Below, piece by piece: positions 415 to 52,300 of a stretch of DNA of 64,000 bases. The translations under genes were made by a program, and so were the position numbers. Each line of letters starts with the position of its first letter. Position 1 is the stretch's first letter. Origin of the DNA: Asterias amurensis (taxonomy: Eukaryota); the NCBI RefSeq assembly GCF_032118995.1, contig NC_092653.1:7123031-7187030 (forward strand). The letters are read 5' to 3'. The notes under the pieces are model-generated. The model was given only the letters and a program-made list of their open reading frames with translations. It had not been told where the DNA came from and searched no databases.

Positions 415-680
415 CTGTAACAAAGCCCAGTCCTCGTTGATCAACCATTCATGACGGTCAGCGGTCTTAGTGTCCGTAGCGGTCGTCCGGTGAACAATGG
501 GTAGAGGCTTGACCACCGGCTTGCCTGCCATGGCACGGAGCTTCTGCTGCTTGGCCTCACGACGCATGCGCAGGAGGGCGGCTGAGGGACGATTGAAGAG
601 TGACTGGGGCGGGGTCATTATGTGAGCCGTGTGGTGTGGTGTCTCACCTGTCTTTGTGTGCGGTTTGATCTTACGAACAC
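415..680 (-). CDS. additional downstream coding exon ending in a SANT/Myb-like motif (candidate EP400/Dom-A-like alternative C-terminal region)
   Basis: Acceptor ctctgttttcccccataacag|GTGTTCG, donor TTACAG|gtaaag, phase 1->0, phase-compatible with exon 1882-2032. Peptide GVRKIKPHTKTGETPHHTAHIMTPPQSLFNRPSAALLRMRREAKQQKLRAMAGKPVVKPLPIVHRTTATDTKTADRHEWLINEDWALLQ. The W-x3-EDWALLQ ending matches the start of a SANT domain helix 1. The open frame continues 5' of the ATG the track uses. Confidence 0.5.
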
Positions 681-1497
681 CTGTTATGGGGGAAAACAGA
701 GTTATACAAATAAAACATACTAAAACTTTACCTATATATGTGATCTACCACGTGTTCTTTTTGTAAATTTTATAGAAGAATTTGATAACAACATCTTTCG
801 TTATACCTTTACTCCTGTTTGAGTCATTACTAATTTGGGAGACACGGTTTGCTGTCTTGTCTAGGCACCCTTCAAAAGTTGCCCATAGATTTAAAGGAAA
901 TGGCTCTTTGCAAAATGAAAGACCTTGCCATCTTAAAGATGAGACAATAATAAATAATAAATTTTCCAAACTTCAGTGTACAACCATCTACATAACACTT
1001 GTATTCCTTGTACAAAAACAATTTTGTTTTATTCCTGTTGATCCGTCTTTATGATCCGAACCTCTAAGCTTTGATTTTAGTAAAACGAACAAATCCACTT
1101 TGCAAATCAATCAAAGGGTAATTTCATTCTCTACAGGATAAAGCAAACTTGTTGAAGACTTGGAAATAATCATTTATGTAAGGATTTCTATGAACAGTGG
1201 ATAATCATGTGAACCTGCCCCATTCAAGGAGTAGTGACTTATTTTGCAGTATTTTTTACCGCGTAAGAAAGTATGTTAACCAAATTTATGTGATGCAAGA
1301 CAAGTAAAACAAACTGGTTTTGCTTTCAGTGTTATTTAAATTATTTATTTAGCCATTGATAAAATATACGAACATACAGGCAGTTGAAATATTGAAAGAT
1401 AAAACTGACACTGTGAGGCGAGGATATTCACTGTAGAAAGCGCTCTGAAGCGGTACAAATTATGGTCAATTGTGCGTAAGCACTAACAGGTTGAAGA

Positions 1498-1847
1498 CAG
1501 TGGACACTATTGGTAATTGTCAAAGACCAGTCTTCTCTCTTGGTGTATCTCAACATATCGTAAAATAACAATCCTGTGAAAATTTGAGCTCAATTGGTCG
1601 TCGAAGTTGCGAGATAATAATGAAAGAAAAAACACCCTTGTCACACGAAGTTGTGTGCTTTCAGATGCTTGACTTCGACACCTCAAATTCTAAATCTGAG
1701 GTCTCGAAATCAAATTCATAGAAAATTACTTCTTTCTCGAAAACTATGTTACTTCAGAGGGAGCCATTTCTCACGGTGTTTTATACTATCAACAAATAAG
1801 GTTTTATTCTAATAATTATTTTGAGTTATTACCAATAGTGTCCACTG
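1498..1847 (+). mobile_element. MITE family A (TIR CAGTGGACACTATTGGTAAT), copy 1
   Basis: Terminal inverted repeats cagtggacactattggtaat ... attaccaatagtgtccactg. AT-rich ~350-bp body shared with the copies at 54237-54612 and 57825-58166. Confidence 0.8.
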
Positions 1848-1881
1848 CCTTTAAAGAAGGTTTAACTGAAGAACACCCTAC

Positions 1882-2032
1882 CTTGATCCACCTTGGCCTT
1901 CTTGTGTTCCTTCTTGACGTAGACCTGAGGTAGTTGAGATTCCATCATGATGGAAGACTCGTACATGAGGCTGGCCGAGTAATCCACATACACATCATTC
2001 TCATCCTGAGGCGGTGTAGGTGGAGCCCACAT
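1882..2032 (-). CDS. additional downstream coding exon (candidate alternative 3' exon of the Domino-type gene)
   Basis: Acceptor ttggtacag|ATGTGGGC, donor GATCAAG|gtaggg, phase 0->1. Peptide MWAPPTPPQDENDVYVDYSASLMYESSIMMESQLPQVYVKKEHKKAKVDQ has non-random composition. It lies 4.7 kb 3' of the stop of the big exon on the same strand. Confidence 0.5.
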
Positions 2033-2339: not shown

Positions 2340-2412
2340 GAGGGAATACTATAACTGGTTGAGTAATCCACGTACACACCATTCTCATCCTGAGGGGTTG
2401 TGGGTGGAGCCC
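2340..2412 (-). pseudogene. truncated duplicate of the 5' part of exon 1882-2032 with the acceptor AG destroyed (CAG to CTG)
   Basis: gagtaatccacgtacacaccattctcatcctgaggggttgtgggtggagcccacatcagtac vs exon gagtaatccacatacacatcattctcatcctgaggcggtgtaggtggagcccacatctgtac. It would encode MWAPPTTPQDENGVYVDYS and then diverges. Confidence 0.55.
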
Positions 2413-2596
2413 ACATCAGTACTCGGTCAATGGGAGGTGCTTATTATATACCCTGCATACATGCCAATCATGTACGAGAACTTCAAGTGGATTTAATTAC
2501 CCTGTCAAAATATTACCATTGAATATTACCAATACTTTCAGGTAATAGCACCATGTGTAAATCTCTGTTGAGCAGAGTTGGTTTTGAAAAGGACTA

Positions 2597-3256: not shown

Positions 3257-6200
3257 TCTATACATCGAATAAACTTCTGTTGTACTTACCGGCATGGTCT
3301 CATTTGTGTTGGATATGTACACCTAGATGGAGAGAATAAACAAGGAACTTGCAATAATTTGACATTGAAGAAACTGCAGGTCAGGAAAAGAGGCGGGATT
3401 TCGACTCAAAGATTAGTAGTGGCAAACTTCCGTCTCTGTTGTAATCCTCATAGAAACAATCAATTTATTGGAAGGGGGATTTGGAACACTATTTTGTCCG
3501 TCTTGTTACAGGCAAAAAATTTGAATGAAACAAATGTTCTTCAGATGAAAGCTTGTTAAGAACGCAGAAATAATTGGGGGTTTCTTTATTTTATCACTTA
3601 CACTGAAATTGCGCCTATTTGCTTGCAACTCTTAAGTGTTTTGGAGGATACCAAGCAGTTTTAACTGGTCACTGCTGATTCATTTCACCTTTTTTGCTGA
3701 TTGTATTTGGATCCATTTGTATTTTTCTTTAAATTAGCACATTCTTTGATTTACAATCTTCCGTTGCCACCGTTGCTGGTGATCTCCAAGCAATTAGCCC
3801 AAAATAAGATTGTAAAATAAGAGGGGTTGGTAATTGACTGAATACCTTTGCCATAGACCGTGGTAAAATCACTTCAGTCTTATTTAAGGGTATTTTCCTT
3901 GAAAACCTACTTTAATGTGAAAATGTTCTGATGACTGAGAAAGATTTTTCCAGGAAGGATTTTGGCAGATACATGGTCTTTTAAAGAAAGGAAATGCGAC
4001 TTTGTTTCCTTTGCGTGTCTAGAACTTAAATATAACATTGATTCCCCCTTTTTGTGTTCAAAAGCTGTTTTTGATGTACAAAATGTTTTTCCTTAAAAAT
4101 TTACATCAAAGGAAAGATCTTTGGTTTTCTTTTTGTGTCTGATTACAGTATATATCGTTCTAGATGGAATACTATTTTGTTTTTAGAGTAAGAGTCAACT
4201 CATCAATTTCTCATTAATTTTACACTTTGACTCATCGTCTGTGTTTGAGAAGAAAGGACTTGGCCATAAAGATAATTTTGAAAACATAAAATCTTCACTG
4301 AAACTGTCTCTAATGGATTATTACACAAGCTGGTTTTTTACCTAAAACAAAACAAATTCTTGCATAAACTTGTTATGAAATTAACCACCAACATTCTTCT
4401 AGAAGTCTGCATTTGAAACCTTGCATTAGGTTGATTTTGAACGTTTGCTCTAGAAGTATTAGTTACCACTGTAGTGACTTATCTTTTGTATCAGCATGTC
4501 TTGAAACTTGTTAAGCACCATTTATAAAAGAGAGCAATCCTTTCATAGCTCATGCTCTGATTGTGCAATTTGTGTGAGATGGTCAAGGAAAATTGTTCAC
4601 AAGAAGCAAAGAGTGCGAGGGGAAAAAATAGAAAAAATAAAACAAAAAATCTGACAACTTCTGTAAATGTTTTAAAGGGTTTGGGTACTTTTTACACAAA
4701 ACACAATGTCCCCAGATTTACATTAAACTTACACAGTTTGAAGATAATGATGGTAGAAAGCTTCCCTTAAAATATTACTTGCTGAGGTGCTGTATTTTTT
4801 TAATAAATGGGTAAAACAATTTACACAAATAATTTTCATCTCAGTCAGACAAAAATTATTTTCGCATGTAAAAACTTACTAACATTTATGGTAAAATACC
4901 ATAGCTGGTAAATATGTTTTACATGCTAAAACTGAGACGAAAATTATTTTTGTGACATTGTTTTACTCAATGCACAGCACCTCAGCAAGTAAATTGTTAA
5001 GGTACGCTTTCTACCATCATCATCTTCAAACTGTGCAAGTTATTGTAAATCTGTTGACATTGTGTTTTGAGTCCTAAAAAAAGTACCTGAACTCTTTAAA
5101 GGTACATGCAGTTATCAAGACATCGTCTCAAAGCTTTGTAATCTGGAATCGTATCAATCAATGCCCACTAAACCAAACCGCCCCTGGCCCACCGTTTGTA
5201 TCTCCACCTCCAATGGTTTTTAGCTCAGATTGGCACAGGCAATATAAATTTGATTTCCTCAGAAAAATAAGCCAGAAAACGTAATAAGAATTATAGTGAA
5301 GAGATTGATTCAAGTGACATGCGCATTTGGCATTTCTGGATCTTTTATTGTTACCAGCCAAACCACATCCACTGAACTTTTTATACCATCAAATTGGAGA
5401 GAGATAGTGTATGGGCCAGGACAGATGTAAAATTAGAAGGCGACCATTGTATTGCGAAAAACTTGGCAGAGCCAAGCGTTTTTAAAAACAACAGTAAAGT
5501 TCACAACAAATTGTGTTTACAGTTTTGTCTGAAATCAACGTGTACTTTCTGGGACTGATAAAGAGATATTGTAACCTTCTTTGTTTGGCAAGAAATTTGG
5601 TGTAACTTTCTCATTAATACCATTCCACTACCAAGCCTGGCCGAACTCAGAGCATTAAAAAAACCAACAGAAGTAAAGACACAAACAGTTTTCTTTAGTT
5701 TTTATCTTCTCAAGCTTTATATTTGTTGTTTTTATTAATCCCATTTTTCTCTTCTTCCGTCTCGCTATATCAATACAAAAATACTGGGAACACATTATGC
5801 AGAATAAACATTTTTTGGCTTTTTTTAAGGTTTAAATAATCCTTCAAATTAATAAAGTTTTAAGATTTCTATAAGAGTCAACTCAGAATGGGATGTCGGG
5901 CACGATTTACTGCAGAATACCTCTAGATATCAATATTCGAGACTGTATAGTGATTTCATAATACATTTTAAAAACCTAATCACTACAGAATCTTTTGAGC
6001 AGTCTTCGTTATCAATACAGCTTTGCCTGTTAGTTTTCAACACATTTTTTTCATAGGGTAACCCTTTTTTTGAGCTTGGTCTTTCTACGGGTAATAAAAA
6101 CCCACCCAAATCTGTCATGAACCCCAGATCTTTTTTGGGGATCAAAACTGTCTGGACAATCGTGTCTACTTTGTCACCCAAAGAGCATAATAAAGAGACA

Positions 6201-6773: not shown

Positions 6774-9700
6774 TCAACTGGGTACCGGATGTTTACGAGG
6801 GCGCCCCCTACCTCGCTTAACTTTGGGAGTGTTATCAGTTTGACTGGGAGTTCCTCCTCCCCTAGCGGGGGAGACATCCCTTGAATTCGCCCTTGAACTG
6901 CTCCTAGAACTACCCCTTGATAAGTTGATTAAATCTCGAACAGATAATGAAGGGCTGGCCGAGTGGTGCCGGCCTCGAGATCGAGTCCGTATCAAACTAT
7001 CCGCTAGCTCAGCGCCGCTTTTTGCGCGGGTTCGAGGGCCTGCGGTTTTATCTACTACAGGGAGCTGATGTATTTTGGCAAGTTTTTGCTTGAGGGCGGT
7101 CTTTGCGAGCTGCTGAGGGGTGGGGACCTTTGTACTTTCTGATGTAGCCCCGTCTGAGCTAGAGGCATCAGTGTAATTCTCAACAGGGGTTAGTGGCTGG
7201 ACTGGACCGTCGGTGGCAGCAGGTACAACAACCAGGTTAGAGTTACTCTTGGAGTTTTCAGGCGTTTGGCTTGGGATGGTTAATGATTTTGAGATGGCCA
7301 GATCCAAAGCAGTTGGTGATGATGGTACCAAGACATTGGATGGTAAGGGTTCAGATGGTGGGGATGCTGTGGGACTCGTTGATTTTGGACCCGGTGATTT
7401 CATCATGGAAGAGAACAACTTGAAGATGTTGCGCTGTTCGGGACTACTACTGCCTGGTTTAGTGGAGCTCTGTGCAGAATATTCAGAGCTAGTATTGCCC
7501 TGTGGCTGGTTGGTATTTGTCAATACATCATTGATACTTCGTTCCACCATCACTGCTTGTGGTGTTTTATACTCGGGAGCAGCAAGCAATGGGCTTTGGA
7601 GATTTTCAAACAAGTTGCGTTGTCCATTGTTTTCTGATTTGGGTGCCGAGTTAACCAGTGGTATCGACTCTGCTGTCGTGTTCACTGGATCCAAGTGTAG
7701 TCCTTGGTTCGTCGTGACTAGAGAGTTCTTTTGTTGAAGTGTTGGTGAAAGATCCAGTGGCTCAGGAGAATCGGAAAGAGCAGGCAGAGGTGGAGACTGA
7801 GTGTTAGGGGAGGATTGCGTGGAAGGAGGCGAATGTGTTGGATTTGGGGAACGCTTGGTTGGGTAGGACTGGGGACTGGAATAGATCAATGGTATGGACG
7901 ACTCATTTGGTGCTTGTTCTCCTAAGAATGGCTTGGGAATCTCAGTTTGGGTTGAAGGTGTAGTCCCTTTTTCTAAAATAAGTTTAAGATCTTCCAAAGC
8001 ATTTTTTTCTGATTCCGGGTTAGATGTGACTTGTATTTGCATTGGCTCAGTATGTCCATGGAATTTGGATTCAGCTTGTAGTATCGGAGCCTGTGGCGAC
8101 ACCTGTGATAGTGTGTGGGCTCCTCCTGCCTGTGTCTTAATCACACTCGTGGTCTGAAGATTTAGAAGCAATTCCACCTGCATTTCAGGAGACATTTGCT
8201 CTGATAAAGACTGACTGGGTAATCGGACCGGTGTTTTCTCCTGTTGAACAGGCTGGGCATTGAGACTAAGCACAGGGTTTGCTTCCCTTGGAACACCTGC
8301 AGCGTCAATGCGCACCTTCCCAGCTACCAAGGCTCGAACAGCAGTTTCAGAACGTTGAACATCCATTGCAATCTGTGGCTCGACTTGATCCGAGGGTTTA
8401 TCGACTACCAATCTATGAGACACATCGTGAGCCAGCTCTAATAGTGGTATCGGTCGAATCTCTTTATGTTCAACAAGTGGCTCTGATACTGTTGTGGGAG
8501 GGGGCCTGACGGCAGCCTGGGACAGTATTGGCATCTGTAGTTTTGGTGACAAGGAGACTGTGAAAGGAATCTCGGAGGAAGAATGCCCAATAGGCTGGGA
8601 TGGGGCATTGAACCTTTGTGAGGGTGATAGACTTGTATGTACAACACGAGGTGGAAGGGAAATGTGTGATCCAGCCGATTGCGGGTGATGGGCTACTAAC
8701 GATCCCGGAACAGGAGGTCGCAAAATGCCTGATCCAGAAACTTGTGGTTGTGACGTAACTGTCTGTGGTATTTGTCTTGATACTTGTGGTTGATTGCCAA
8801 CTGTTGAAGCCACTTGTGCTCTGGTTGGCTGTGAAGGGACAAGAGATCCTATCACTTGGGAAGGAGCCGATGCTCTGGGAACGGAGACACTCTTGGCCAA
8901 GGCTTGTGCTATGGTTTGTGGCTTTCCAGCAGTCTGCCGAACAGCTTGCTTCAGAGACTGCAACTGTAACAGAGCTTGGGCGTTAATCGTTGGTGCACGT
9001 AGTGGATGTCTGTGCACTGGAAGCTGTGGCTGAGCTGGATGTCTGTGAGGGACAGTGTGTAGCTGTAACTGGGGTATGACCTGGGTGTTGAATCTGTTGC
9101 GTGGTTGGGATGGGCCTGCTGGCAACAACTCAAATCGTGCCAGTATCGGCTGACCCTTCTGTCTAGGTTGGCCTTGTGCACCCAGCAGCTGAGCTGATCC
9201 AAGGGGCTGTTGATGCACCAAACCCTGACCTTGAGTTGGATGTGTGGCCAAGGAAAGGCGAAGTGCAGGTTGTTGTGATTGAGGACCGAGGCCTGGCCGG
9301 GTCAGCATCTGCAGTCTTGCTAGGATCGGCATCTGGGACTGACTTTGAGTTTGGTTAGGTGAACCCTGCTGTAATGATGCTTGCGAACCACTTTGTAACT
9401 TCAACAGAGTCTGTTCGTTTTGGTAGTACTGAGACTGTAAGTTTTGCATATGGGATGCCACTTGGGGCCGTGACTGACCCTTCAGCTGATAGTGTTGCTG
9501 AAGCAGTGCTGCCTGTGTTGAGATGGGCTGCGGATGCCTCTGAAATTGCGTTGACTGTAGGGGAGGTGGGTTAGGTAGAGTTTGGGATTGGTTTGGCATT
9601 CTTGGTCTTGGAGATGACACCCCTTGAATGCCTTGCTGCAACAGATGTCTGGGAGCTACGTTTGGTTGCGCTCTGTTCAGGGCCAGAAGTTGAGCTGTGG

Positions 9701-10772
9701 TTAGGGGTCTTAGACTGGCTGATGATAAAGACGGATGCTGCTTACGAAGAGCCTCCAAGTTGCTTTGAACAACGGATGTTATTTGGTTCGTTGGATTTGG
9801 GGGTGGAGACGTCGTGGAATAAATAGACGACATAGGATGTCCAGGTATTAACAGAGGAACAGCAGGAAGCTTTGGTGTCTGGAGATGTGAGGAATGAACG
9901 TCGGCTGCAAGGCGAGACACCAAATCAGGGACTGGAGGCAAGTCAGCCTGTCTAAGAAGCAGTGGTTGATTCCCTCGAGGAGATAAGTTCAGCGGCTGGA
10001 CACTGTCATTATTCCCAACAGATGAATGGGCAACGGAAATATTTATTGTAGGAGACATGGCACCCGACGGATGGACGTTCATCAACACCCCTTGAGGGTT
10101 ACACACAACTCTGGAGTGAGAGGAAACGGGTAGTCTTGAAGAGGGTCCCGTCAAGGATAAATCCATTGGGGAGTTGCAGCTTCGCTCTACACCATCTACA
10201 ATCACCTCTTGGAGCTGATTCTCAACAGCAGCAGCTGCAGCTTCTGCTTTCCTTTTCGGCGCCTTACTCGTCTTCGGCTCTTTGGCTTTACCTCCCTCTT
10301 TCGCAGATGACTTCTTGGACTTGGGGGTCTTCTCTGCCCTCTTAGACGGCAACTTTGCTGGGGCCAACCGAGCCAGAGGGGACTTAGGGGAGAGTGATGC
10401 AGTTGGAGGGATAGGAGGTGGGGATTTTGTACCCACCGACCTCGTCACCGGGGACCTAGGGCCAGAATCATCTATGGCATCTGCCTTTGGATTGCGCCGC
10501 GTGCTGCGCCCCGGTGCTGTCTGGGATTGTCGCGCGGTTCTTTCTTTACTATTGGACCTACTGTTTGCCCTACTGCTCTTTTGACTATTACTCTTAGACT
10601 TATTACCACCACCCTGTTTAGATCTACTCTTATGCACCTTATTTTTAGACTCCTCATTGGTGTAGGTGAAAAAGATCTCGTCCTCTTCGAGCTCAGCCTT
10701 TCTCTCCTCGGCCTCCTTCAGAGCTTGCAGGCGCTCCAGTTCCCACTCTTTCTTGGCCAACTCTACTTGTTC
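6774..10772 (-). CDS. SRCAP: Domino-type ATPase, 4-kb terminal exon (SRCAP-like C-terminus): P/Q/S/T-rich low complexity ending in an AT-hook and stop
   Basis: Acceptor ttttgttggtattag|GAACAAG at 10772 with an in-frame TAG just upstream. 3999 bp stop-free to the TAA at 6776-6774. It starts EQVELAKKEWELERLQALKEAEERKAELEEDE and ends ...TPKVKRGRGRPRKHPVPS*. The GRP core flanked by K/R is an AT-hook, as at the SRCAP C-terminus. The supplied track starts this ORF at an internal TTG (10760). Confidence 0.85.
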   Translation of the reverse strand, partial: EQVELAKKEWELERLQALKEAEERKAELEEDEIFFTYTNEESKNKVHKSRSKQGGGNKSKSNSQKSSRANSRSNSKERTARQSQTAPGRSTRRNPKADAIDDSGPRSPVTRSVGTKSPPPIPPTASLSPKSPLARLAPAKLPSKRAEKTPKSKKSSAKEGGKAKEPKTSKAPKRKAEAAAAAVENQLQEVIVDGVERSCNSPMDLSLTGPSSRLPVSSHSRVVCNPQGVLMNVHPSGAMSPTINISVAHSSVGNNDSVQPLNLSPRGNQPLLLRQADLPPVPDLVSRLAADVHSSHLQTPKLPAVPLLIPGHPMSSIYSTTSPPPNPTNQITSVVQSNLEALRKQHPSLSSASLRPLTTAQLLALNRAQPNVAPRHLLQQGIQGVSSPRPRMPNQSQTLPNPPPLQSTQFQRHPQPISTQAALLQQHYQLKGQSRPQVASHMQNLQSQYYQNEQTLLKLQSGSQASLQQGSPNQTQSQSQMPILARLQMLTRPGLGPQSQQPALRLSLATHPTQGQGLVHQQPLGSAQLLGAQGQPRQKGQPILARFELLPAGPSQPRNRFNTQVIPQLQLHTVPHRHPAQPQLPVHRHPLRAPTINAQALLQLQSLKQAVRQTAGKPQTIAQALAKSVSVPRASAPSQVIGSLVPSQPTRAQVASTVGNQPQVSRQIPQTVTSQPQVSGSGILRPPVPGSLVAHHPQSAGSHISLPPRVVHTSLSPSQRFNAPSQPIGHSSSEIPFTVSLSPKLQMPILSQAAVRPPPTTVSEPLVEHKEIRPIPLLELAHDVSHRLVVDKPSDQVEPQIAMDVQRSETAVRALVAGKVRIDAAGVPREANPVLSLNAQPVQQEKTPVRLPSQSLSEQMSPEMQVELLLNLQTTSVIKTQAGGAHTLSQVSPQAPILQAESKFHGHTEPMQIQVTSNPESEKNALEDLKLILEKGTTPSTQTEIPKPFLGEQAPNESSIPLIYSSPQSYPTKRSPNPTHSPPSTQSSPNTQSPPLPALSDSPEPLDLSPTLQQKNSLVTTNQGLHLDPVNTTAESIPLVNSAPKSENNGQRNLFENLQSPLLAAPEYKTPQAVMVERSINDVLTNTNQPQGNTSSEYSAQSSTKPGSSSPEQRNIFKLFSSMMKSPGPKSTSPTASPPSEPLPSNVLVPSSPTALDLAISKSLTIPSQTPENSKSNSNLVVVPAATDGPVQPLTPVENYTDASSSDGATSESTKVPTPQQLAKTALKQKLAKIHQLPVVDKTAGPRTRAKSGAELADSLIRTRSRGRHHSASPSLSVRDLINLSRGSSRSSSRANSRDVSPARGGGTPSQTDNTPKVKRGRGRPRKHPVPS

Positions 10773-11987: not shown

Positions 11988-12071
11988 CTCTGCTTCCAGC
12001 ATCTCATCCATAGCAATCGGTTCAAGCGTAGACTCCAGATACTTCATGGCGTACTTCTCAATGTTGGTCAA
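11988..12071 (-). CDS. SRCAP: Domino-type ATPase exon (post-ATPase)
   Basis: Acceptor tccctctgtag|TTGACC, donor GCAGAG|gtaggt. Peptide LTNIEKYAMKYLESTLEPIAMDEMLEAE matches SRCAP LTPIERYAMKFLEASLEEVS. Confidence 0.85.
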
Positions 12072-12965: not shown

Positions 12966-13142
12966 TTGATTATCCAGCTGTGCCAGCTCAATCTCCACCT
13001 TCGAGACGTCGTCTTTGGATTTGGTCCCCTCTTCTCCCTCATAGGGTATCGTCTCATCGAACTCAGCCAGATCAGCATCTTGCTCGGCAAGAGCCTTGGA
13101 GGTTGCCTTGACGTCCGTCTCATCTTCAGTCTTAGCCAAAGC
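12966..13142 (-). CDS. SRCAP: Domino-type ATPase exon (post-ATPase)
   Basis: Acceptor tattatcttttag|GCTTTGG, donor GATAATCAA|gtaatt. Peptide ALAKTEDETDVKATSKALAEQDADLAEFDETIPYEGEEGTKSKDDVSKVEIELAQLDNQ (compare SRCAP ...AEQVAELAEFNEN...). Confidence 0.8.
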
Positions 13143-13932: not shown

Positions 13933-14124
13933 CTGTTCTAGCTGATTCTGCGTCATGACAGCCTTTGCCTCAGCGGCAGCTGCTTGCTCAGGCTTGTCTG
14001 CCTTCTCAGGCTCGACAGCCTTGGCTACCTTAGGCTCCTTCCCTGTTGGGATGTCCATCTCCTCGATGAGGACAGGCTCAGCTTCTCGTCTGTTGCTCAG
14101 ATTGAAGATGTCCGTAATGGTGTT
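13933..14124 (-). CDS. SRCAP: Domino-type ATPase exon (post-ATPase acidic region)
   Basis: Acceptor tttctctttgcag|AACACC, donor GAACAG|gtaagg. Peptide NTITDIFNLSNRREAEPVLIEEMDIPTGKEPKVAKAVEPEKADKPEQAAAAEAKAVMTQNQLEQ (compare SRCAP QTIRELFDMPLEEPSS...ILEQ). Confidence 0.8.
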
Positions 14125-14660: not shown

Positions 14661-14775
14661 CGTTTTGAAAAATGCTGTGGTGAAGTTACCTCCCTCGATG
14701 GACACATCAACCAAGAGTCTCTTCTGATTGGCCTTCTTTAAGATGTTCTCCTCTACGGTCATTTCACTGATCAAC
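14661..14775 (-). CDS. SRCAP: Domino-type ATPase exon, end of helicase C
   Basis: Acceptor ttgtgttgtag|GTTGATC, donor AAAACG|gtaagt, phase 2->0. Peptide RLISEMTVEENILKKANQKRLLVDVSIEGGNFTTAFFKT matches SRCAP RLISERTVEENILKKANQKRMLGDMAIEGGNFTTAYFKQ. Confidence 0.95.
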
Positions 14776-20147: not shown

Positions 20148-20179
20148 GCTGGCCGGCTTCCTGCTGTCGTCACAGAAAC
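20148..20179 (-). CDS. SRCAP: candidate 32-bp micro-exon that restores phase
   Basis: Acceptor gatttttcag|TTTCTGTG, donor CCAGCG|gtaaag. It converts phase 1 to phase 0 between the two flanking exons. Peptide VSVTTAGSRPA. No homology support. Confidence 0.3.
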
Positions 20180-32090: not shown

Positions 32091-32120
32091 CTCTCAATTT
32101 CTAGTTATTATTATTATTAC

Positions 32121-38289: not shown

Positions 38290-38511
38290 CTTCCGTTTCT
38301 TCATCTTCTTGTTCCCCTTCATCTTCATCTTCCTCCTCCTCTTCCTCAGACAGCGGCATCTCAAAGTCGTCATCGTACGCCCCGCTGTACTTCTTGAGGA
38401 GTTCCTCCATGGTCATCTCTCCCTCAGCCTGTAGCTCAGCGACCTCAGCAGTGTGGTCTGTAGTACCCTCGGTATCCTCTTGCTCTTGCAACGTTTCCTC
38501 ATCATCCGGCA
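38290..38511 (-). CDS. SRCAP: Domino-type ATPase exon (acidic)
   Basis: Acceptor gctttttctcag|TGCCGG, donor ACGGAAG|gtaaga, phase 1->1. Peptide MPDDEETLQEQEDTEGTTDHTAEVAELQAEGEMTMEELLKKYSGAYDDDFEMPLSEEEEEEDEDEGEQEDEETE. Confidence 0.75.
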
Positions 38512-39218: not shown

Positions 39219-39306
39219 TTTCTTCATCCTCATCGTCTGTAGATGGCACAAATTCTTCATCTGCCGAGGACGACTTCTCTTTGCTTTCCTCTTCCACTTC
39301 TTTGGT
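39219..39306 (-). CDS. SRCAP: Domino-type ATPase exon (acidic)
   Basis: Acceptor tgtctgctag|ACCAAAG, donor GAAGAAA|gtgagt, phase 0->1. Peptide TKEVEEESKEKSSSADEEFVPSTDDEDEE. Confidence 0.65.
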
Positions 39307-39738: not shown

Positions 39739-40013
39739 CACTTCACTTAAGCCCGGCTCTTCCTCCTCCTGTTTCTTCACCTTCTCCTCCGTCTTCTCTC
39801 CATCTTTTGACTCCTCTTTCTTCTCCTCTTTACCATCTTCAAGGATCTCCGGAGGAAGGCTGCCAATGAGATCTTCAAGGGGGACTTCACTCTCCTTCTG
39901 GAGGAGTTCTAACTCCTTCTTGTGAGCATCTTGGTCATCCTCTGCCTCCCTCTCTTCGACGTCGATGGTTTCTTCATCGTCAGATTCATCACCCTCTGGC
40001 TGGAAGTCCACAT
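39739..40013 (-). CDS. SRCAP: Domino-type ATPase exon (acidic E/D/K stretch)
   Basis: Acceptor ttataatgcag|ATGTGG, donor GAAGTG|gtgagt, phase 1->0. Peptide DVDFQPEGDESDDEETIDVEEREAEDDQDAHKKELELLQKESEVPLEDLIGSLPPEILEDGKEEKKEE... Confidence 0.75.
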
Positions 40014-41131: not shown

Positions 41132-41333
41132 CGTCTCCTGGTGTTGCAACACTAGGATCTGATCTCGGACTCGAGGCCACAGAGCCTTGTGCAGACCCTG
41201 CTGCGTTCAGATTGAGTCCCTCCGTCAGCCAGGAAGAGTACTTCTCGGTCTGGCCGACGATGTAATCAAGCTGCATGTCCATTGCTTTCCTTCTCCTGTC
41301 GTCAAGCCGACTCTGCTGCTTGTATTGCACTAC
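41132..41333 (-). CDS. SRCAP: Domino-type ATPase exon (post-HSA)
   Basis: Acceptor gtcctcgcag|GTAGTG, donor GGAGACG|gtatgt, phase 0->1. Peptide VVQYKQQSRLDDRRRKAMDMQLDYIVGQTEKYSSWLTEGLNL... Confidence 0.8.
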
Positions 41334-42520: not shown

Positions 42521-42661
42521 CTTTTCAATGTTTGACCAGAAGGTCTTGATCTCCTTTGCGATGTTCCCAGCGATCCTCCTCAGTTTCTGGGTCTCTTCTC
42601 TCTCTGCCTTCACTTCCTTGGTGTGCTTCTCCTGGTGAAATCTTGCTACGGCACGCACCAA
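42521..42661 (-). CDS. SRCAP: Domino-type ATPase exon, HSA domain part 2
   Basis: Acceptor ctctctgatgcag|TTGGTG, donor GAAAAG|gttagt. Peptide LVRAVARFHQEKHTKEVKAEREETQKLRRIAGNIAKEIKTFWSNIEK matches SRCAP/EP400 ...LRRIAS.IAKEVKQFWSNVEK. Confidence 0.9.
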
Positions 42662-44084: not shown

Positions 44085-44368
44085 CTGTTTGGCACGCTCA
44101 ACAATCATCTCCTGAGATCCGATGGTGTAATCATACACAGCAGATAGCGAGTGCTGCCTGGTGGCCAACCGCTGGTGTGCGTTCGGCGAGATGGGCGACT
44201 TCGGCAGCTTGATTGGCGGTGTCCCGGTGGCCGAGCCACTGGAGTGGCGCCGGGGCGACAAGCTGCCTCCGACTGGTGCTGTGCTGGTGACTTCAGTGCT
44301 TGCTGTTGTATTAACTGTGAGGGGTTTGTTGGTTGGCGCCTTCAGTTGGTGTAATGAGTGCTTCGCTG
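44085..44368 (-). CDS. SRCAP: Domino-type ATPase exon (S/T/P-rich linker)
   Basis: Acceptor tgcatcttttag|CAGCG, donor AAACAG|gtatgg, phase 1->0. Peptide ...SPRRHSSGSATGTPPIKLPKSPISP...YDYTIGSQEMIVERAKQ. Confidence 0.6.
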
Positions 44369-44803: not shown

Positions 44804-44983
44804 TAGGAGGTGACTTTGGCTCCCGTCGTACATGAGGAACGCCGAGCGACGTCCGCATGGTAGACGAGGATGCAACCGCTGCAGCAATCTGACTGCGGTT
44901 TGACGTACCGTGGTGCTGGTGCTGGCCTGCTGCAAGCTGCTTGTGCTGTTTGTATAGTGGTGATGGTTGACTCCCTGGTAAGG
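44804..44983 (-). CDS. SRCAP: Domino-type ATPase exon (Q/H/S-rich)
   Basis: Acceptor gacatttgcag|CCTTACC, donor CCTCCTA|gtaagt, phase 1->1. Peptide ALPGSQPSPLYKQHKQLAAGQHQHHGTSNRSQ... Confidence 0.55.
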
Positions 44984-48025: not shown

Positions 48026-48127
48026 CTGGAATTGGAGTGATGGTCTTGTGACTAAGAGTGACGTTGGGCTCATGTGAAGATGGAAACCCGAGGGGTTTTC
48101 TCTCAGGTGTAATACTGCTATCTAGAC
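48026..48127 (-). CDS. SRCAP: Domino-type ATPase exon
   Basis: Acceptor ctcttttctgcag|GTCTAG, donor ATTCCAG|gtgaga, phase 1->1. Peptide LDSSITPERKPLGFPSSHEPNVTLSHKTITPIP. Confidence 0.6.
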
Positions 48128-48850: not shown

Positions 48851-49044
48851 CTATGGAGGGAAATTAGAAACTGATTAATTGACCATTAGGGAAAGACTTG
48901 CACAGCTTGAGTGTCCTTCAACAAAATGTTGATTTTTCCATCACAGCTTGGAATTCAGTACAACAATAATAAAATAAATGGGATTTTGAATCCATAGCTA
49001 GGGTTAGGAATAGCTGGAAAACAAAATACTTAAAGATTGTTTAC

Positions 49045-50163
49045 CTCATCATTGATTGTTATCTCTTCTTCACGGCCTTCCAGTTTCTGATTCATCATGT
49101 AGTTATGCAGAGTTGGACATGGCCGTTTCTTCCACGCTATGAAATCCATCATGTTGTGTCCATTCTCCAAGAAGAACAGCTCTATTAATCTCTCCTTGTA
49201 ACCTTCTTGCAAGTCATGCAAGGTTTCAAGTTTGTGCTCGAGTAAACGAGTTCTCAGTTCAGCCACCTCATTGGTGGCGGGGGGATGGTCTGTTTCAGAG
49301 GCCATCAGTGGGGATTTGCGCATTCGCGATGGACTGGACGGTATAGGGTTTGTCCGTGCTGGGCTGCTCAGACTTCTGTGGTAGGCACCGCCACCGGCTG
49401 TGGGGCTCTTCCGGTCTGGTGCACCTCGTGTGGGACTGTGGCTGCTCATTCTCCGTGCTGCGCCAAAGTTGAGTCCGGAACTTGACAATGGTGGCATGGT
49501 AGATCTGGGCGAGCCTTGACCATGGTGGTGTATGGTTCCCACTGGTTGATGGTGGCTGGGCAGCAGCAAGGACTGTAGTTGAATTTGCTCTTGCGATATC
49601 TGGGGCTCCTCTCCTAATGAAAATAGCTTCGGGGTGTTGTGAAAAACATACGGGTTTGTGGTCCCGATGCTAGTTGGTGGAGTATTGACACTCATCTGCT
49701 GCATAGAAAGCCCAGTGCTTGGATCCACAAAGCCAGGACTCAGCTGCAGATTGATCACCTGATTCGAAGTGCCTGCAATGAGCTGGGTCCGCAGGCTTGC
49801 CAGTTGCATGAAGGCTTGTTGCCTGGCGACATCCTGATGATTCTGCTGTTGCTGCTGCTGCTGCAGGACAACTGCTGAAGGTGACACCTGTGCATGCTGA
49901 GCTGGCACCCGTATGGGCGACGTTTGAATCGGGCGACTTGAGGCAACAACCTGTGCCCCTTGTACACCTGCAACTGGGTTGATGAGGTACTGTTGGAGGG
50001 TATGCTGTGGGACAACATATCCCGATGAGTGCGAAGGGAGACCTTGTGACAGGTCTATCGATCGCTGAGTGGTTTGTTGTTGCTGTGGTTGAGGTTGTTG
50101 TGGCGGAGACCCCAGCTTGTGGTAGACCCCGCTTTGACTGTCGTCACTGCTTCCCCTCTGCAT
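49045..50163 (-). CDS. SRCAP: Domino-type ATPase, first coding exon (exon extends to acceptor at 50187); Q-rich N-terminus with EP400_N-like segment
   Basis: Acceptor tcttttttag|GAC at 50187 with an in-frame TAG just upstream. ATG at 50163-50161 in context gtaaccATGc. Donor GATGAG|gtaaac. The peptide ...YKERLIELFFLENGHNMMDFIAWKKRP...EEEITINDE resembles the human EP400 N-terminal region (...[27 protein letters not shown]...EVINDE). Confidence 0.7.
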
Positions 50164-51961
50164 GGTTACCACAAGCTCCTTGGGGTCCTAAAAAAGACCA
50201 GACAAAAAAACAAACAAAAATTAAGATGTTTCAAAAGACAAACAAAACCTTTCTGAACAAACAGAGGACAGAAACAAATAAAAAATTAAGACATTTAAGA
50301 AGATTCTTTCTTAACCTTCAAGATCAAAATAAAAGTTGTCATTACAAGGATAGCAGCTAATCAATACAACATCATTTTGCAGGATGATTGCAACCACCCT
50401 TACACCCTTCTTTTGTCAAACGTAATTTTTCTATCCAAACACAGTGATCATTATCTAGGAGGATAATGTTGACTGTTTTGCAATGAGTGCAGATCATTGA
50501 GTAGTAGAAGACTAGCTAGCCATGCTTTTGTATTTACGCAATGTCCAAATTGGCAACTTTATGTAGGTTTAGCACTGATGGAGAGGACCACCTAGGAAAA
50601 TATATAATTGAAAAAATTAATAAATTTTGACACATTTTTTGTTTCGCTTATTGGGACATTTCCCTCAAAATTTTGATTTGATCCTTCTAAGGATGACTTT
50701 ATTCCCTTGTGAAAAAAAGGAAACTGTTTGCCACAATTGCATAAAACCTTTTGTGATCATAAAAATTTATTATCTAAGTGTGAAAAAATTTGCATTGGAA
50801 GAAGAAGGACAACTTTACAAATAATGTCAAAAGTGAAGTATCAAAAGTTTCACTCGCTGATTAATTGTGGGTCACATTGATGTTTGTTTATCTTGCATAT
50901 TGCACACTCTGCCATTTTTTGAGCCCTACAGCTTGCATTTAATCTGTTTAATGTTTAGGCTACCAGCAATACCATACTCATTAAATTAGTTTTACAGAAG
51001 ACAAACATTAATAGTTTTGCTTCCAATGTCAAGAAGACCTATTGTGTTTTAACATAAAGTTGACAAAACAGATTTTGAAAAAGTGTTCATATGGCGCCAC
51101 CACAATTGGAATTTGTTACTTAATTTCGCAAAGGAAGGATAACTTTCCGTATGGCACCACCACTTTTTCACTCATTTTTACAAAAAGGGATATCTCATTG
51201 AGGTAAATTAGATACTTTATTATTTCATATCAAATAAAAAAGTGGTGGCGCCATACGGAAACTTTTCCCAAAGGAATTCAATAAGTCTCAGTTTCTTACC
51301 ATTCATGCCATTGGCTTTGTTGAACTATTAAAATCCATAGGAAATTTGCAAAGTTTTTTTTGCGGTTGGTTTTCGACCCTAAAAATATCTATCTGACTGC
51401 TCCTTTTTTACTCATTCAAGTTGCTACCCAAATCAATATCTAATAATACACATCATAATTGCACAAGCAGCAATTTAATAAATATATCTACAAGGTAAAC
51501 GAGTACGTAGATGACTCTATTCTTAGATTTAGAAATAGAGCAGGAATTTAAAAGGGGGAAAATCAGTCAAACGAAAATTGAAGAAAGCTGCCATTATTTC
51601 TTACACTTTTTGGGCCAAAATTTCTATCAATCCCCAAAACCAAGGTAAAGTTGCAAACAATGTTAATTATAAAACCTCAAAACTGTACTAAAATCTAATA
51701 TTACTGGTGGAAGAAAGCGCCTGCACAGGTAGCAGACTACGGAGTGCGGGACAATTTCCCTGCGCCATGATGATCCAGCTACCTTCCCGGCCAACGTGTC
51801 ACGAGTATGCAGTGCAAATGTGCCGCACAATCCATTACATTGCCCTTGCGTTATCACAATGCACGGCACACAGTGTTTGGCATACAATCGCATGACATCA
51901 CGAGGCCGGCGAACGTCCATATTCCACCAACGAACACAACACAGAGACAAAATACACTTAC

Positions 51962-52060
51962 ATTTTATCGGAGATATCGCAGCGAATTACAGCCCATCGG
52001 CGGGCTTGAACCCTCCATCCAGGTCGCTTGCACAACTAGGGACACAATTCTGCCATTTTG
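51962..52060 (-). other. candidate 5' non-coding first exon (TSS position unknown)
   Basis: The donor AAAAT|GTAAGT lies immediately 3' of the promoter-like motifs. The 5' end is not determinable from sequence. Confidence 0.25.
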
Positions 52061-52300
52061 GGCAGCCAATGTGACGTCTTAAATATAAAAATGGTAAAAT
52101 GTTCCTGTTTTTGTACGTTCTTCTTTTGACGAAACGGCCTCCAGGATAATGGCGGATCCGTTCATAGCAATCTCATCGTACATGCACAAAATCTGAATAA
52201 ATTATGTAAAATAACCTCGCCCGGTGACGTATATCTGTGCTGATTGGTTGTTGAGCTAAAGGCTCACCCATTGCGTAGATAAGAGGCGGGAAATTTGGGA
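51962..52300 (-). promoter_or_regulatory. putative TATA-less promoter and TSS region of the Domino-type gene
   Basis: E2F-like GGCGGGAAA at 52285-52293 (reads TTTCCCGCC on the - strand). CCAAT boxes in both orientations (ccaat 52066-52070; tgattgg 52240-52246). CRE-like TGACGTC (52072-52078) and GTGACGTA (52224-52231). On the - strand this is followed by a GTAAGT donor (51961-51956). The first coding-exon acceptor lies 1.8 kb downstream at 50187. Confidence 0.35.

What the first reader, a model, noticed from the sequence alone, without database searches (positions are those of the whole stretch)
415..52300. Single Domino-type gene combining an EP400-like N-terminus with an SRCAP-like ATPase and C-terminus
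A chain of at least 33 phase-consistent exons on the - strand encodes about 3,770 aa. Its parts match the human paralogues differently. (i) A segment in the first coding exon (YKERLIELFFLENGHNMMDFIAWKKRP ... EITINDE | VKVITNSG...AISTQLPPAVSA) parallels the human EP400 N-terminal region. (ii) The HSA domain matches both paralogues. (iii) The split SNF2 ATPase is near-identical to SRCAP: GLGKT, DEAQ, the RWQTLLNFNSQRRLLLTGTPLQN and [29 protein letters not shown] motifs, and a long Q/P-rich insertion between the lobes. (iv) The 4-kb last exon ends in an AT-hook, like SRCAP. Vertebrates split these functions between SRCAP (SWR1-type, H2A.Z exchange) and EP400 (TIP60 complex). The mosaic is what an unduplicated Domino-type ancestor would look like. 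It also gives a complete exon model for a large and hard-to-annotate gene.
Basis: partly seen in the sequence, partly recalled or inferred. Interest (0 to 1): 0.6.

Follow-up and report, generated by a model that had tools for sequence, protein, structure and literature searches.

The report
Echinoderm-type Domino gene, two alternative tails
This is an ordinary invertebrate Domino chromatin-remodeller gene, closest to the sea-urchin one, but the sequence suggests it can end in two ways, one SRCAP-like and one EP400-like, which would mean that vertebrates later split one two-product gene into two genes.

Summary
A spliced gene on the minus strand has 33 coding exons, all with GT-AG introns. It runs from the ATG at 50163 to the stop at 6774 and encodes 3,779 aa. 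Pfam finds EP400_N (1e-27), HSA, SNF2 and Helicase_C. The N-terminus aligns to human EP400 and not to SRCAP. The ATPase is 82-84% identical to SRCAP and 52-54% identical to EP400.

- The 4-kb exon is not the only end of the gene. An internal donor at 10638 is phase-compatible with two downstream exons (2032-1882 and 680-415). These align to the pre-SANT region of human EP400 and then leave the window. The locus therefore looks like Drosophila domino, with a read-through B (SRCAP/SWR1-type) tail and a spliced A (EP400/NuA4-type) tail.
- The B tail is real coding sequence. In a related contig dN/dS is 0.27 and all 21 indels are multiples of three. It has no detectable similarity to the SRCAP tail beyond one AT-hook.
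- The same architecture is already annotated as "helicase domino(-like)" in sea urchin, crinoid, oyster and insects.

It is a new member of a known kind. The modest interest is that A/B tails in a deuterostome invertebrate suggest the two-isoform design predates the SRCAP/EP400 duplication.

The parts
49045..50163 (-). Coding exon 1 (aa 1-373). ATG at 50163, Q/P/S-rich N-terminus, and most of the EP400_N match (49332-49045).
   Evidence: The 'MQRG' start is shared with the Lytechinus and Antedon domino-like proteins. The exon is 83% identical to related contig L001.
48661..48850 (-). Exon 2 (aa 374-436): VKVITNSG...AISTQLPPAVSA, the end of the EP400_N match (48850-48749).
   Evidence: Human EP400 isoform 2 stops aligning at the residue corresponding to the exon 1/2 boundary, which is consistent with a conserved exon boundary.
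48026..48127 (-). Exon 3 (aa 437-470).
   Evidence: Strong splice sites. Conserved in L001. Fused with exon 2 in L002 and L003, which confirms the junction.
44804..44974 (-). Exon 4 (aa 471-527), low-complexity. The least certain exon of the model.
   Evidence: Supported only by coding potential and phase. There is no cross-species support.
44085..44368 (-). Exon 5 (aa 528-622), ending ...SQEMIVERAKQ.
   Evidence: tblastn matches from Lytechinus and contig L003.
43464..43649 (-). Exon 6 (aa 623-684), first half of the HSA domain (43574-43464).
   Evidence: Pfam HSA 2.5e-22. 75-78% identity to echinoderm proteins.
42521..42661 (-). Exon 7 (aa 685-731), second half of the HSA domain (42661-42569).
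41132..41333 (-). Exon 8 (aa 732-798), post-HSA VVQYKQQSRL...GQTEKYSSWL.
   Evidence: 80% identity to Lytechinus.
39739..40013 (-). Exon 9 (aa 799-890), acidic region.
39219..39306 (-). Exon 10 (aa 891-919), acidic region.
   Evidence: 'EEFVPSTDDEDEE' resembles Antedon 'NEFVPTDDEEE'.
38290..38511 (-). Exon 11 (aa 920-993), acidic region.
37627..37856 (-). Exon 12 (aa 994-1070), ending ...ITDIAAAAQSLQPTGYTLSTTQ.
36213..36390 (-). Exon 13 (aa 1071-1129), start of ATPase lobe 1 with Walker A GLGKT (about 36270).
34888..35024 (-). Exon 14 (aa 1130-1175), lobe 1.
33832..33974 (-). Exon 15 (aa 1176-1222), lobe 1 with DEAQ (about 33869).
32121..32340 (-). Exon 16 (aa 1223-1296), lobe 1: RWQTLLNFNSQRRLLLTGTPLQN.
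   Evidence: 92% identity to Lytechinus.
30533..30669 (-). Exon 17 (aa 1297-1341), lobe 1.
29769..29955 (-). Exon 18 (aa 1342-1404), end of lobe 1.
28855..29272 (-). Exon 19 (aa 1405-1543), start of the inter-lobe insertion.
28115..28305 (-). Exon 20 (aa 1544-1607), insertion.
23870..23996 (-). Exon 21 (aa 1608-1649), insertion (TTQPITVQLQ motif).
22766..23434 (-). Exon 22 (aa 1650-1872), Q-rich insertion.
21512..21688 (-). Exon 23 (aa 1873-1931), insertion. Its acceptor could instead be 21664.
   Evidence: 'PVLKIRPLSN' matches the RPV(M/V)(R/K)VSPL motif of Antedon, oyster and bee proteins.
20087..20178 (-). Exon 24 (aa 1932-1962), ending ...DSPFFL|gtaagt. It was missed by the first DP pass.
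   Evidence: SP[LF][YF]L|ESL is conserved in the Lytechinus and Antedon proteins.
18942..19258 (-). Exon 25 (aa 1963-2067), pre-lobe-2 region.
17668..17870 (-). Exon 26 (aa 2068-2135), ending ...FPELRLIQYDC.
17195..17364 (-). Exon 27 (aa 2136-2192), ATPase lobe 2 (Helicase_C).
15870..16066 (-). Exon 28 (aa 2193-2257), lobe 2: [29 protein letters not shown].
14661..14775 (-). Exon 29 (aa 2258-2296), end of lobe 2.
   Evidence: 89% identity.
13933..14124 (-). Exon 30 (aa 2297-2360).
   Evidence: (strong splice sites) and the alignment to SRCAP.
12966..13142 (-). Exon 31 (aa 2361-2419).
11988..12071 (-). Exon 32 (aa 2420-2447): LTNIEKYAMKYLE...
10638..10772 (-). Shared 5' part of exon 33 (45 codons, EQVELAKKEW...TNEESKNK), ending at the internal donor AATAAG|gtgcat (GT at 10637-10636, phase 0).
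   Evidence: A-type and B-type proteins of molluscs and arthropods diverge at the same residue.
6774..10637 (-). B-specific read-through part of exon 33: 1,287 codons, S/P/Q-rich, stop at 6776-6774.
   Evidence: Open frame. The orthologous ORF in L004 is 80% identical at the amino-acid level. dN/dS is 0.27 (CI 0.23-0.33) and 21 of 21 indels are multiples of three.
6792..6812 (-). AT-hook core GRGRPRK, 5 residues before the stop.
   Evidence: Identical in L004. The last 27 codons have dN/dS 0.04.
1882..2032 (-). A-type exon 1: MWAPPTPPQDENDVYVDY...QVYVKKEHKKAKVDQ. Acceptor cag| at phase 0, donor AAG|gtaggg.
   Evidence: Aligns to human EP400 but not to SRCAP. 56-58% identity to Lytechinus and Antedon.
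415..680 (-). A-type exon 2: ...TPPQSLFNRPSAALLRMRREAKQQ...HEWLINEDWALLQ|gtaaag. This is the lead-in to, and the first residues of, the SANT region. The gene continues beyond position 1.
   Evidence: 61% identity to Lytechinus.
2355..2451 (-). Degenerate partial duplicate of A-type exon 1 without an AG acceptor (pseudo-exon).
   Evidence: 83% identity over 103 nt.
5349..5741 (-). Two AATAAA signals (starting at 5736 and 5349 on the minus strand). They are candidate poly(A) signals for the B-type mRNA.
   Evidence: A motif match only.

Best explanation
The locus is the Domino (SWR1/EP400-type) gene of an echinoderm-like invertebrate. All products share a body of 32 exons plus 45 codons. This body contains an EP400_N region, an HSA domain, an acidic stretch, a SWR1-type Snf2 ATPase split by a roughly 660-aa Q/P/S/T-rich insertion, and a post-ATPase helix region.

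The 3' end is most likely made in two ways, as in Drosophila domino.
(B) The 5' splice site at 10638/10637 is ignored. Translation then reads on for 1,287 codons of disordered S/P/Q-rich tail that ends in an AT-hook, with the stop at 6774. By analogy with DOM-B and SRCAP, this product would scaffold the H2A.Z-exchanging SWR1-type complex.
(A) The same 5' splice site is joined to exon 2032-1882 and then to exon 680-415. The transcript continues outside the window into a SANT domain and a Q-rich tail. By analogy with DOM-A and EP400, this product would scaffold the TIP60/NuA4 acetyltransferase complex.

Shown here: the exons, their phases, the splice motifs, domain and paralogue-specific similarities, purifying selection on the B tail, and orthology to annotated domino-like genes.
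Inferred: that both 3' ends are actually used in this species, and the function of each product.
For: Gene model: 33 GT-AG exons, 3,779 aa. It is collinear with the RefSeq domino-like proteins of Lytechinus and Antedon and with related contigs.

Domains: EP400_N 1e-27, HSA 2.5e-22, SNF2 1.2e-87, Helicase_C 1.6e-25.

Paralogue comparison against real human sequences:
- The N-terminus matches only EP400.
- HSA plus lobe 1 scores 1057 bits to SRCAP and 584 to EP400.
- Lobe 1 scores 626 bits to SRCAP, 471 to Swr1 and 353 to EP400.
- The spliced A tail aligns to EP400 through ...EWLISEDWALLQ, while the SRCAP alignment ends in the shared exon.

A/B switch: the donor AATAAG|gtgcat at 10638 ends in phase 0, the acceptor at 2032 starts in phase 0, and the 1882->680 junction is phase-compatible. 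Mollusc and arthropod A and B proteins diverge at the same residue, and B forms continue with V (GTN), as expected for read-through of a donor.

B tail is coding: dN/dS 0.27, 21 of 21 indels in frame against 11 of 35 in the downstream non-coding DNA, and the AT-hook is conserved.

Public models: A-type domino-like isoforms exist in L. variegatus, Antedon and C. gigas. A B-type form with an AT-hook exists in Biomphalaria. In L. pictus the A tail is annotated as a separate 'EP400-like' gene starting at MPIWAPPTPP. The last point fits an upstream gene model that ends before the A exons, though I did not see that model.

Functional analogy: DOM-A and DOM-B (PMC7239659).
Against: - There are no transcript data for this species, so the use of either 3' end is not shown.
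- The A-type acceptor at 2032 is weak (score 0.4).
- An in-frame TGA lies just upstream of that acceptor, where Lytechinus encodes about 11 more residues (VYISQTEEIMP). The A exon is therefore 5'-shortened here or partly degenerate.
- The SANT domain itself lies outside the window.
- The B tail has no detectable similarity to the SRCAP tail. It shares only short motifs (AT-hook, PRTR[SA][RK]) with protostome B tails.
Confidence: 0.8

Rival explanations
1. There is one product only, ending in the 4-kb AT-hook exon. The EP400-like exons downstream (2032-1882, 680-415 and beyond) belong to a separate downstream gene that encodes just the SANT/Q-rich part.
For: RefSeq annotates exactly such a separate 'E1A-binding protein p400-like' gene, starting MPIWAPPTPP, in Lytechinus pictus. 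In the window the exon starts with ATG, has an in-frame stop just upstream, and has a weak acceptor.
Against: RefSeq joins these exons to the ATPase body in L. variegatus, Antedon, C. gigas and ants. Human EP400 is continuous across this junction. The internal donor and both junctions are phase-compatible. The divergence point is conserved across phyla. A protein with SANT but no HSA would lack the second scaffold element that DOM-A, EP400 and Eaf1 all have (PMC7239659).
Confidence: 0.12
2. Only the spliced EP400-like (A) product is real. The 3.9-kb open frame after the donor is intronic sequence that happens to be open.
For: The RefSeq proteins I saw for L. variegatus and Antedon are all A-type.
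Against: 1,287 codons without a stop. dN/dS is 0.27 with an upper confidence bound of 0.33. All 21 indels against L004 are multiples of three. The AT-hook end is nearly invariant. B-type proteins are annotated in molluscs and insects.
Confidence: 0.03
3. The N-terminal EP400_N exons (44-50 kb) belong to a different transcript from the ATPase exons, so the 'mosaic' is an artefact of chaining two genes.
For: No direct evidence. Exon 4 is weakly supported, and a 3-kb intron separates exons 3 and 4.
Against: Full-length domino-like proteins of sea urchin, crinoid, oyster and insects have the same order: EP400_N-like region, HSA, SWR1-type ATPase. Contig L003 carries EP400_N and HSA ORFs on the same strand, 4.7 kb apart. 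Exon 5 ends '...IVERAKQ' and exon 6 begins 'EAQVMQRIAELRKEG', a junction that is continuous in the Lytechinus protein.
Confidence: 0.02

Closest known systems
Drosophila domino (DOM-A / DOM-B isoforms; Scacchetti et al. 2020, PMC7239659)
   Same: A single gene with a shared HSA plus split SWR1-type ATPase body and alternative C-termini. The A tail carries the SANT lead-in, and the B tail is long and disordered. In insect proteins the divergence point is the same residue as in the window.
   Different: The window's B tail is much longer (1,287 aa) and ends in an AT-hook. No isoform expression data exist for this species. The source organism groups with echinoderms, not arthropods.
RefSeq 'helicase domino-like' of Lytechinus variegatus (XP_041456348.1) and Antedon mediterranea (XP_071946523.1)
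   Same: These are the closest full-length relatives. They are collinear over nearly all exons, start with MQRG, have 91% and 86% identity in lobe 1, and have the same A tail.
   Different: They come from different species: the N-terminal region is only about 46% identical to Lytechinus even in its conserved part. The database proteins I saw are A-type, whereas the window also shows the B-type terminal exon. The window's A exon lacks the 'VYISQTEEIMP' segment.
Human SRCAP
   Same: The ATPase is 84% (lobe 1) and 82% (lobe 2) identical. HSA, the acidic region and the post-ATPase helices align. Both have a very large last exon that carries AT-hook(s) (PMC8206150).
   Different: SRCAP has no EP400_N region and no WxPPTPPQDD/SANT tail. 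It has three AT-hooks instead of one. The tail sequences are not detectably similar.
Human EP400
   Same: The EP400_N segment aligns (EP400 residues 352-489, E=3e-20). The region after the ATPase aligns through WTPPTPPQDD ... EWLISEDWALLQ.
   Different: EP400's ATPase is far more diverged, at 52-54% identity, with DEMQ and STHSRTTG in place of the window's DEAQ and STRSGGLG. EP400 has no read-through AT-hook tail.
Yeast Swr1 (and Eaf1)
   Same: Swr1 lobe 1 scores 471 bits and is 67% identical, which is more than EP400. It has the same HSA plus split ATPase layout.
   Different: Yeast keeps the SANT-bearing NuA4 scaffold (Eaf1) as a separate gene (PMC7239659). It has no EP400_N.

Membership tests
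SWR1/Domino-type (INO80-subfamily) Snf2 remodeller ATPases | HSA domain N-terminal to the ATPase | tested here: met
   Pfam HSA 2.5e-22, 79 bits against a cut-off of 23.
SWR1/Domino-type (INO80-subfamily) Snf2 remodeller ATPases | Intact Snf2 lobe 1 and lobe 2 with catalytic motifs (GLGKT, DEAQ, STRSGG) | tested here: met
   SNF2-rel_dom 1.2e-87 and Helicase_C 1.6e-25. Motifs located.
SWR1/Domino-type (INO80-subfamily) Snf2 remodeller ATPases | Long insertion between the two ATPase lobes | tested here: met
   About 660 aa (aa 1405-2067), containing 45% Q+P+S+T.
SWR1/Domino-type (INO80-subfamily) Snf2 remodeller ATPases | Closer to SRCAP/Swr1 than to INO80 or other Snf2 subfamilies | tested here: met
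   SRCAP 1057 bits, EP400 584, Swr1 472, INO80 about 320, BRG1 273.
Domino with A/B alternative 3' ends | Shared exon with an internal 5' splice site at the conserved position. Read-through gives the B tail and splicing gives the SANT-type A tail. | tested here: met
   Donor at 10638 in phase 0. Downstream A exons are phase-compatible. The divergence residue is the same as in mollusc and arthropod A/B proteins. This is met at the sequence level only.
Domino with A/B alternative 3' ends | Both isoforms are expressed and assemble distinct complexes | not testable with these tools
   No transcript or protein data for the source organism.
EP400 (vertebrate paralogue) | EP400_N region | tested here: met
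   Pfam PF15790 at 1e-27. Human EP400 residues 352-489 at E=3e-20.
EP400 (vertebrate paralogue) | SANT domain C-terminal to the ATPase | tested here: inconclusive
   Only the lead-in and first residues (HEWLINEDWALLQ) lie in the window. The rest is beyond position 1.
EP400 (vertebrate paralogue) | Diverged ATPase motifs (DEMQ, STHSRTTG) and high similarity to the EP400 ATPase | tested here: not met
   The window has DEAQ and STRSGGLG. Identity to EP400 is 52-54%, against 82-84% to SRCAP.
SRCAP (vertebrate paralogue) | C-terminal AT-hooks | tested here: met
   One AT-hook, KRGRGRPRK, at aa 3768-3776. Human SRCAP has three (PMC8206150). This is a motif-level match only.
SRCAP (vertebrate paralogue) | Sequence similarity of the C-terminal tail | tested here: not met
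   No phmmer hit to full-length SRCAP at E<=10 with the whole tail or with its last 119 aa.
SRCAP (vertebrate paralogue) | Short N-terminus without EP400_N, and no SANT-type tail | tested here: not met
   The window has EP400_N and A-type exons.

The most novel reading that the evidence does not exclude
The Domino design of two alternative 3' ends is not an arthropod invention that converged with the vertebrate gene pair. In that design, reading through a donor gives an AT-hook 'SRCAP-type' tail, and using the donor gives a SANT 'EP400-type' tail. On this reading the design was already present in the last common ancestor of protostomes and deuterostomes. Vertebrate SRCAP and EP400 would then be the two isoforms of one ancestral gene, partitioned after duplication. 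SRCAP kept the read-through terminal exon and lost EP400_N and the A exons. EP400 kept EP400_N and the spliced tail and relaxed its ATPase. The window would be a deuterostome-side witness of that ancestral state.
Probability: 0.6. Interest if true: 0.5.

Novelty: new member of a known kind. Interest (0 to 1): 0.3.

Why it matters
For annotation, the locus shows why this gene is mis-modelled. One pipeline run (L. pictus) splits off the A tail as a separate 'EP400-like' gene. The Limulus model concatenates B-tail and A-tail sequence.

For chromatin evolution, the published view is that flies separate SWR1 and NuA4/TIP60 functions by alternative splicing while humans do so by gene duplication. 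This is described as convergent and possibly arthropod-wide (PMC7239659). The window comes from an organism that groups with echinoderms. It shows the same switch point, a selected B tail and EP400-type A exons. If transcripts confirm this, the splicing solution would be ancestral to bilaterians and the vertebrate pair a textbook case of isoform partitioning after duplication. That would refine a known story; it is not a new kind of system.

Tried and rejected
- The first DP pass (exon penalty 6) skipped many real exons. Lower penalties added micro-exons of 6-47 nt: 41425-41420, 27949-27903, 26723-26690, 12726-12713, 12551-12513 and 12267-12258. Removing them, individually or as sets, leaves the frame unchanged, and they have no homology support, so I dropped them.
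- Exon 21688-21573, with a poor donor, was replaced by 21688-21512 plus the new exon 20178-20087 after I found the conserved SPFFL|ESL motif.
- One search was an empty script.
- phmmer with the full 622-aa N-terminal region found no EP400 hit in the PDB sequences. Trimming to the 158-aa conserved segment recovered EP400 at 3e-20.
- The word-indexed homologue search returned no protein longer than 764 aa, so it did not identify the organism.
- Contig names and accessions (ERZ26222911, ERZ25070167, GCA_013332995.1, SRR26532981) did not reveal a species to me.
- An NJ tree of the ATPase did not resolve when SRCAP and EP400 split. EP400 sits on a long branch below all bilaterian sequences, and it groups with a degenerate sponge protein. 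Both placements are likely long-branch attraction.
- Pfam found nothing in the B tail, the A-type exon (680-415) reading frame, or the upstream neighbour.
- Rfam and ARAGORN gave only a borderline tRNA-like hit in an intron.
- The review by Scacchetti and Becker (2021) is not in the held library.
- I looked for a micro-exon encoding the 'VYISQTEEIMP' segment between 10638 and 2032. I found only an in-frame-stop-containing remnant directly upstream of the 2032 acceptor.

Full report

Yes.

I built an independent gene model with a splice-aware dynamic programme. It used a 3-periodic Markov coding score, generic donor and acceptor matrices, strict phase bookkeeping and a small bonus for tblastn matches. 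I then curated the result.

The final model has 33 coding exons and only GT-AG introns. It spans 11,340 nt, or 3,779 aa. The ATG is at 50163 and the stop at 6776-6774. The 32 donors give a MAG|GTAAGT consensus. Acceptors are preceded by 74% pyrimidines. The median intron is 894 nt.

External support is strong.
- tblastn with the full-length RefSeq proteins of Lytechinus variegatus and Antedon mediterranea gives collinear matches whose ends fall on my exon ends.
- Three related contigs (L001-L003) conserve exons 1, 2, 3, 5 and 6, while the introns do not align.
- In L002 and L003, exons 2 and 3 are one continuous frame, which confirms that junction.

Weak points remain. Exon 4 (44974-44804) has no support beyond coding potential and phase. 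Nothing supports exons between 50164 and 52300.

**2. What are the parts?**

Pfam finds four domains:
- EP400_N: 1e-27, 97.6 bits against a cut-off of 27.
- HSA: 2.5e-22.
- SNF2-related domain: 1.2e-87.
- Helicase_C: 1.6e-25.

That test is passed.

I compared the parts with real human sequences, the full-length chains in the PDB sequence file.
- The conserved N-terminal segment aligns to EP400 residues 352-489 (E=3e-20). It finds no SRCAP match even at E<=10.
- HSA plus lobe 1 scores 1057 bits to SRCAP and 584 to EP400.
- Lobe 1 alone scores 626 bits to SRCAP, 471 to yeast Swr1 and 353 to EP400.
- Identities are 84% and 82% to SRCAP for lobes 1 and 2, against 52% and 54% to EP400.

The ATPase is therefore SWR1/SRCAP-type. 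EP400 is the outlier because it diverged, not because the window is a patchwork. Between the lobes lies a roughly 660-aa insertion containing 45% Q+P+S+T.

**3.

Downstream of the "last" exon there are two more open frames with coding signal.
- 2032-1882: MWAPPTPPQDENDVYVDY...QVYVKKEHKK.
- 680-415: ...TPPQSLFNRPSAALLRMRREAKQQ...HEWLINEDWALLQ|gtaaag.

The 4-kb exon contains a donor, AATAAG|gtgcat, 45 codons after its start, at 10638 in phase 0. The acceptor at 2032 is also in phase 0, and the 1882->680 junction is phase-compatible.

The spliced product aligns to human EP400 from the lobe-2 region through ...EWLISEDWALLQ, the start of the SANT region. The alignment to SRCAP stops in the shared 45 codons. 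Lytechinus and Antedon proteins match these two exons at 55-61% identity.

The exon ending at 415 has a good donor, and nothing coding follows in 414-1. The gene therefore leaves the window.

**4. Is the 4-kb read-through tail a real coding exon?**

Yes. The frame is open for 1,332 codons.

One homologue was found, a 1,320-aa ORF on a Logan contig from a related species (L004). The DNA is 79.5% identical over 5,960 nt, flanks included. Within the B-specific part:
- Amino-acid identity across the whole exon is 80%.
- dN/dS is 0.27 (bootstrap 95% interval 0.23-0.33).
- All 21 indels are multiples of three, against 11 of 35 in the aligned non-coding DNA downstream.
- The last 27 codons, which contain the AT-hook KRGRGRPRKHP, have dN/dS 0.04.

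The tail has no detectable similarity to human SRCAP's tail, whether I query with the whole tail or with its last 119 aa. The resemblance to SRCAP is one AT-hook against three in human (PMC8206150), plus a similar gene structure. Human SRCAP has 34 exons with a very large last exon. The published positions of exon-33 and exon-34 variants place its exon 33/34 boundary between residues 2329 and 2748 (PMC8206150), and the window-equivalent boundary (AE|EQVE, SRCAP about 2336/2337) falls within that range. This is an inference, not a test.

**5. Relatives and what is already known**

An exhaustive HMMER search with exon 1 found 159 proteins at E<=0.001 in the representatives library, including full-length gene models. 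Their public names are as follows.
- Helicase domino-like, Lytechinus variegatus XP_041456348.1 (A-type).
- Antedon mediterranea XP_071946523.1 (A-type).
- Crassostrea gigas helicase domino X4, XP_034338375.1 (A-type). Pfam finds EP400_N (8e-28), HSA, SNF2 and Helicase_C.
- Biomphalaria helicase domino (B-type, with an AT-hook, KRRGRPRK).
- Xylocopa X7 and Anopheles (B-type).
- Vollenhovia X3 (A-type).
- Limulus, a model that concatenates B-tail and A-tail sequence.

Aligned at the switch point, the A and B proteins of molluscs and arthropods diverge at exactly the residue where the window's donor lies. The B forms continue with V (GTN), as expected when a GT donor is read through.

In L. pictus, RefSeq annotates the A tail as a separate gene, 'E1A-binding protein p400-like', beginning MPIWAPPTPP. 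This shows how the structure confuses annotation pipelines.

The literature describes DOM-A and DOM-B in Drosophila. It notes alternative C-termini in several insects and a spider, suggests the mechanism may be arthropod-wide, and presents the human SRCAP/EP400 pair as a different, convergent solution (PMC7239659). DOM-B is equated with SWR1/SRCAP and DOM-A with NuA4/TIP60.

**6. Source organism**

The source is not identified. In an NJ tree of the two ATPase lobes the window pairs with Lytechinus (85% bootstrap) and then with Antedon (55-63%). The insertion and A-tail regions are much more similar to the two echinoderms than to molluscs. I infer an echinoderm that is not close to Lytechinus, because the N-terminal region is only about 46% identical even in its conserved part.

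The same tree does not date the SRCAP/EP400 split. EP400 sits on a long branch below all bilaterian sequences (68% bootstrap) and attracts a degenerate sponge protein. Both placements are probably long-branch artefacts.

**7. Best explanation and its limits**

The locus is the Domino orthologue of an echinoderm-like invertebrate. It most likely makes two products from one body.
- A B form, made by read-through and ending in an AT-hook.
- An A form, made by splicing 10638->2032->680 and on into SANT exons outside the window.

By analogy with fly DOM-B/SRCAP and DOM-A/EP400, the B form would scaffold H2A.Z exchange and the A form the TIP60 acetyltransferase complex.

Shown here: the exons, phases, motifs, paralogue-specific similarities, selection on the B tail, and orthology. 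Inferred: that both ends are used, and their functions.

Caveats for the A form:
- The acceptor at 2032 is weak.
- Directly upstream, in frame, 'MYITSTSHFI*LVQ' resembles Lytechinus 'VYISQTEEIMPI' but contains a TGA. The exon is therefore 5'-shortened here or partly decayed.
- An 83%-identical partial copy of this exon without an acceptor lies at 2451-2355.

The main rival is that the A exons form a separate downstream gene, as annotated in L. pictus. I give it about 0.12. It is disfavoured by the joined models in four other lineages, by the continuity of human EP400 across the junction, and by phase compatibility.

**8. Verdict**

However, the 'SRCAP-like C-terminus' is a motif-level resemblance. 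The gene has a second EP400-type tail and runs off the window. The architecture is already in public annotation.

Novelty: a new member of a known kind. The one point of wider interest is that a deuterostome invertebrate carries the same A/B switch as arthropods and molluscs. That points to an ancestral two-isoform gene later partitioned into SRCAP and EP400. This reading needs transcript evidence.

Noticed in passing
window 2355-2451 (- strand): A partial duplicate of the 5' part of the EP400-type exon 2032-1882, 83% identical over 103 nt. It lacks the AG acceptor (ACTG instead of ACAG) and breaks off after about 30 codons. It is probably a pseudo-exon left by a local duplication.
   Followed up: partly
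window 2033-2074 (- strand): In frame and directly upstream of the 2032 acceptor, 'MYITSTSHFI*LVQ' resembles the 'VYISQTEEIMPI' that precedes WAPPTPP in the sea-urchin protein, but it contains a TGA. The ancestral 5' part of this exon seems to have been lost or decayed in this species. An assembly error is an alternative explanation.
   Followed up: partly
window 58922-63910 (- strand), repeat 60692-63695: The upstream neighbour is an open frame of more than 1,660 aa that runs off the right edge of the window. It contains 8 tandem copies of a 375-bp (125-aa) unit at 98% identity, rich in K/E/S/D/G. No Pfam match was found in the non-repeat part tested (58925-60400).
   Followed up: partly
window 18016-18100 (- strand), and intronic pairs 44700-44479 / 39124-38897, 43285-43037 / 18453-18121, 34632-34450 / 33604-33425: A borderline Rfam tRNA hit (29.9 bits against a gathering score of 29) that ARAGORN does not call. 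Several intronic sequence pairs give near-identical pseudo-translations. These are probably tRNA-derived SINEs or other interspersed repeats inside the Domino introns.
   Followed up: no
protein P0275 (Sycon ciliatum EP00117_P026248): A calcareous-sponge protein has an EP400_N-like region, HSA and a SANT-type tail, but degenerate ATPase motifs (SLGSRL in place of GLGKT, and no DEAQ). It looks like an EP400-like, probably catalytically dead paralogue outside vertebrates. This hints at an independent or much older split of the two functions.
   Followed up: partly
proteins P0310/P0312 (Lytechinus pictus) and P0194 (Limulus polyphemus): Public gene models handle the dual 3' end inconsistently. 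L. pictus has a separate 'E1A-binding protein p400-like' gene that starts exactly at the A-type exon (MPIWAPPTPP). The Limulus model concatenates B-tail sequence with A-tail exons in one protein.
   Followed up: partly
window 11072-11212 and 5119-6773 versus locus L004: Non-coding DNA (part of the intron before exon 33, and 1.6 kb after the B-type stop) is about 80-83% identical to the related contig L004. That is about as conserved as the coding exon at the nucleotide level. This may simply be the neutral divergence level between the two species, or it may reflect a long conserved 3' UTR.
   Followed up: no
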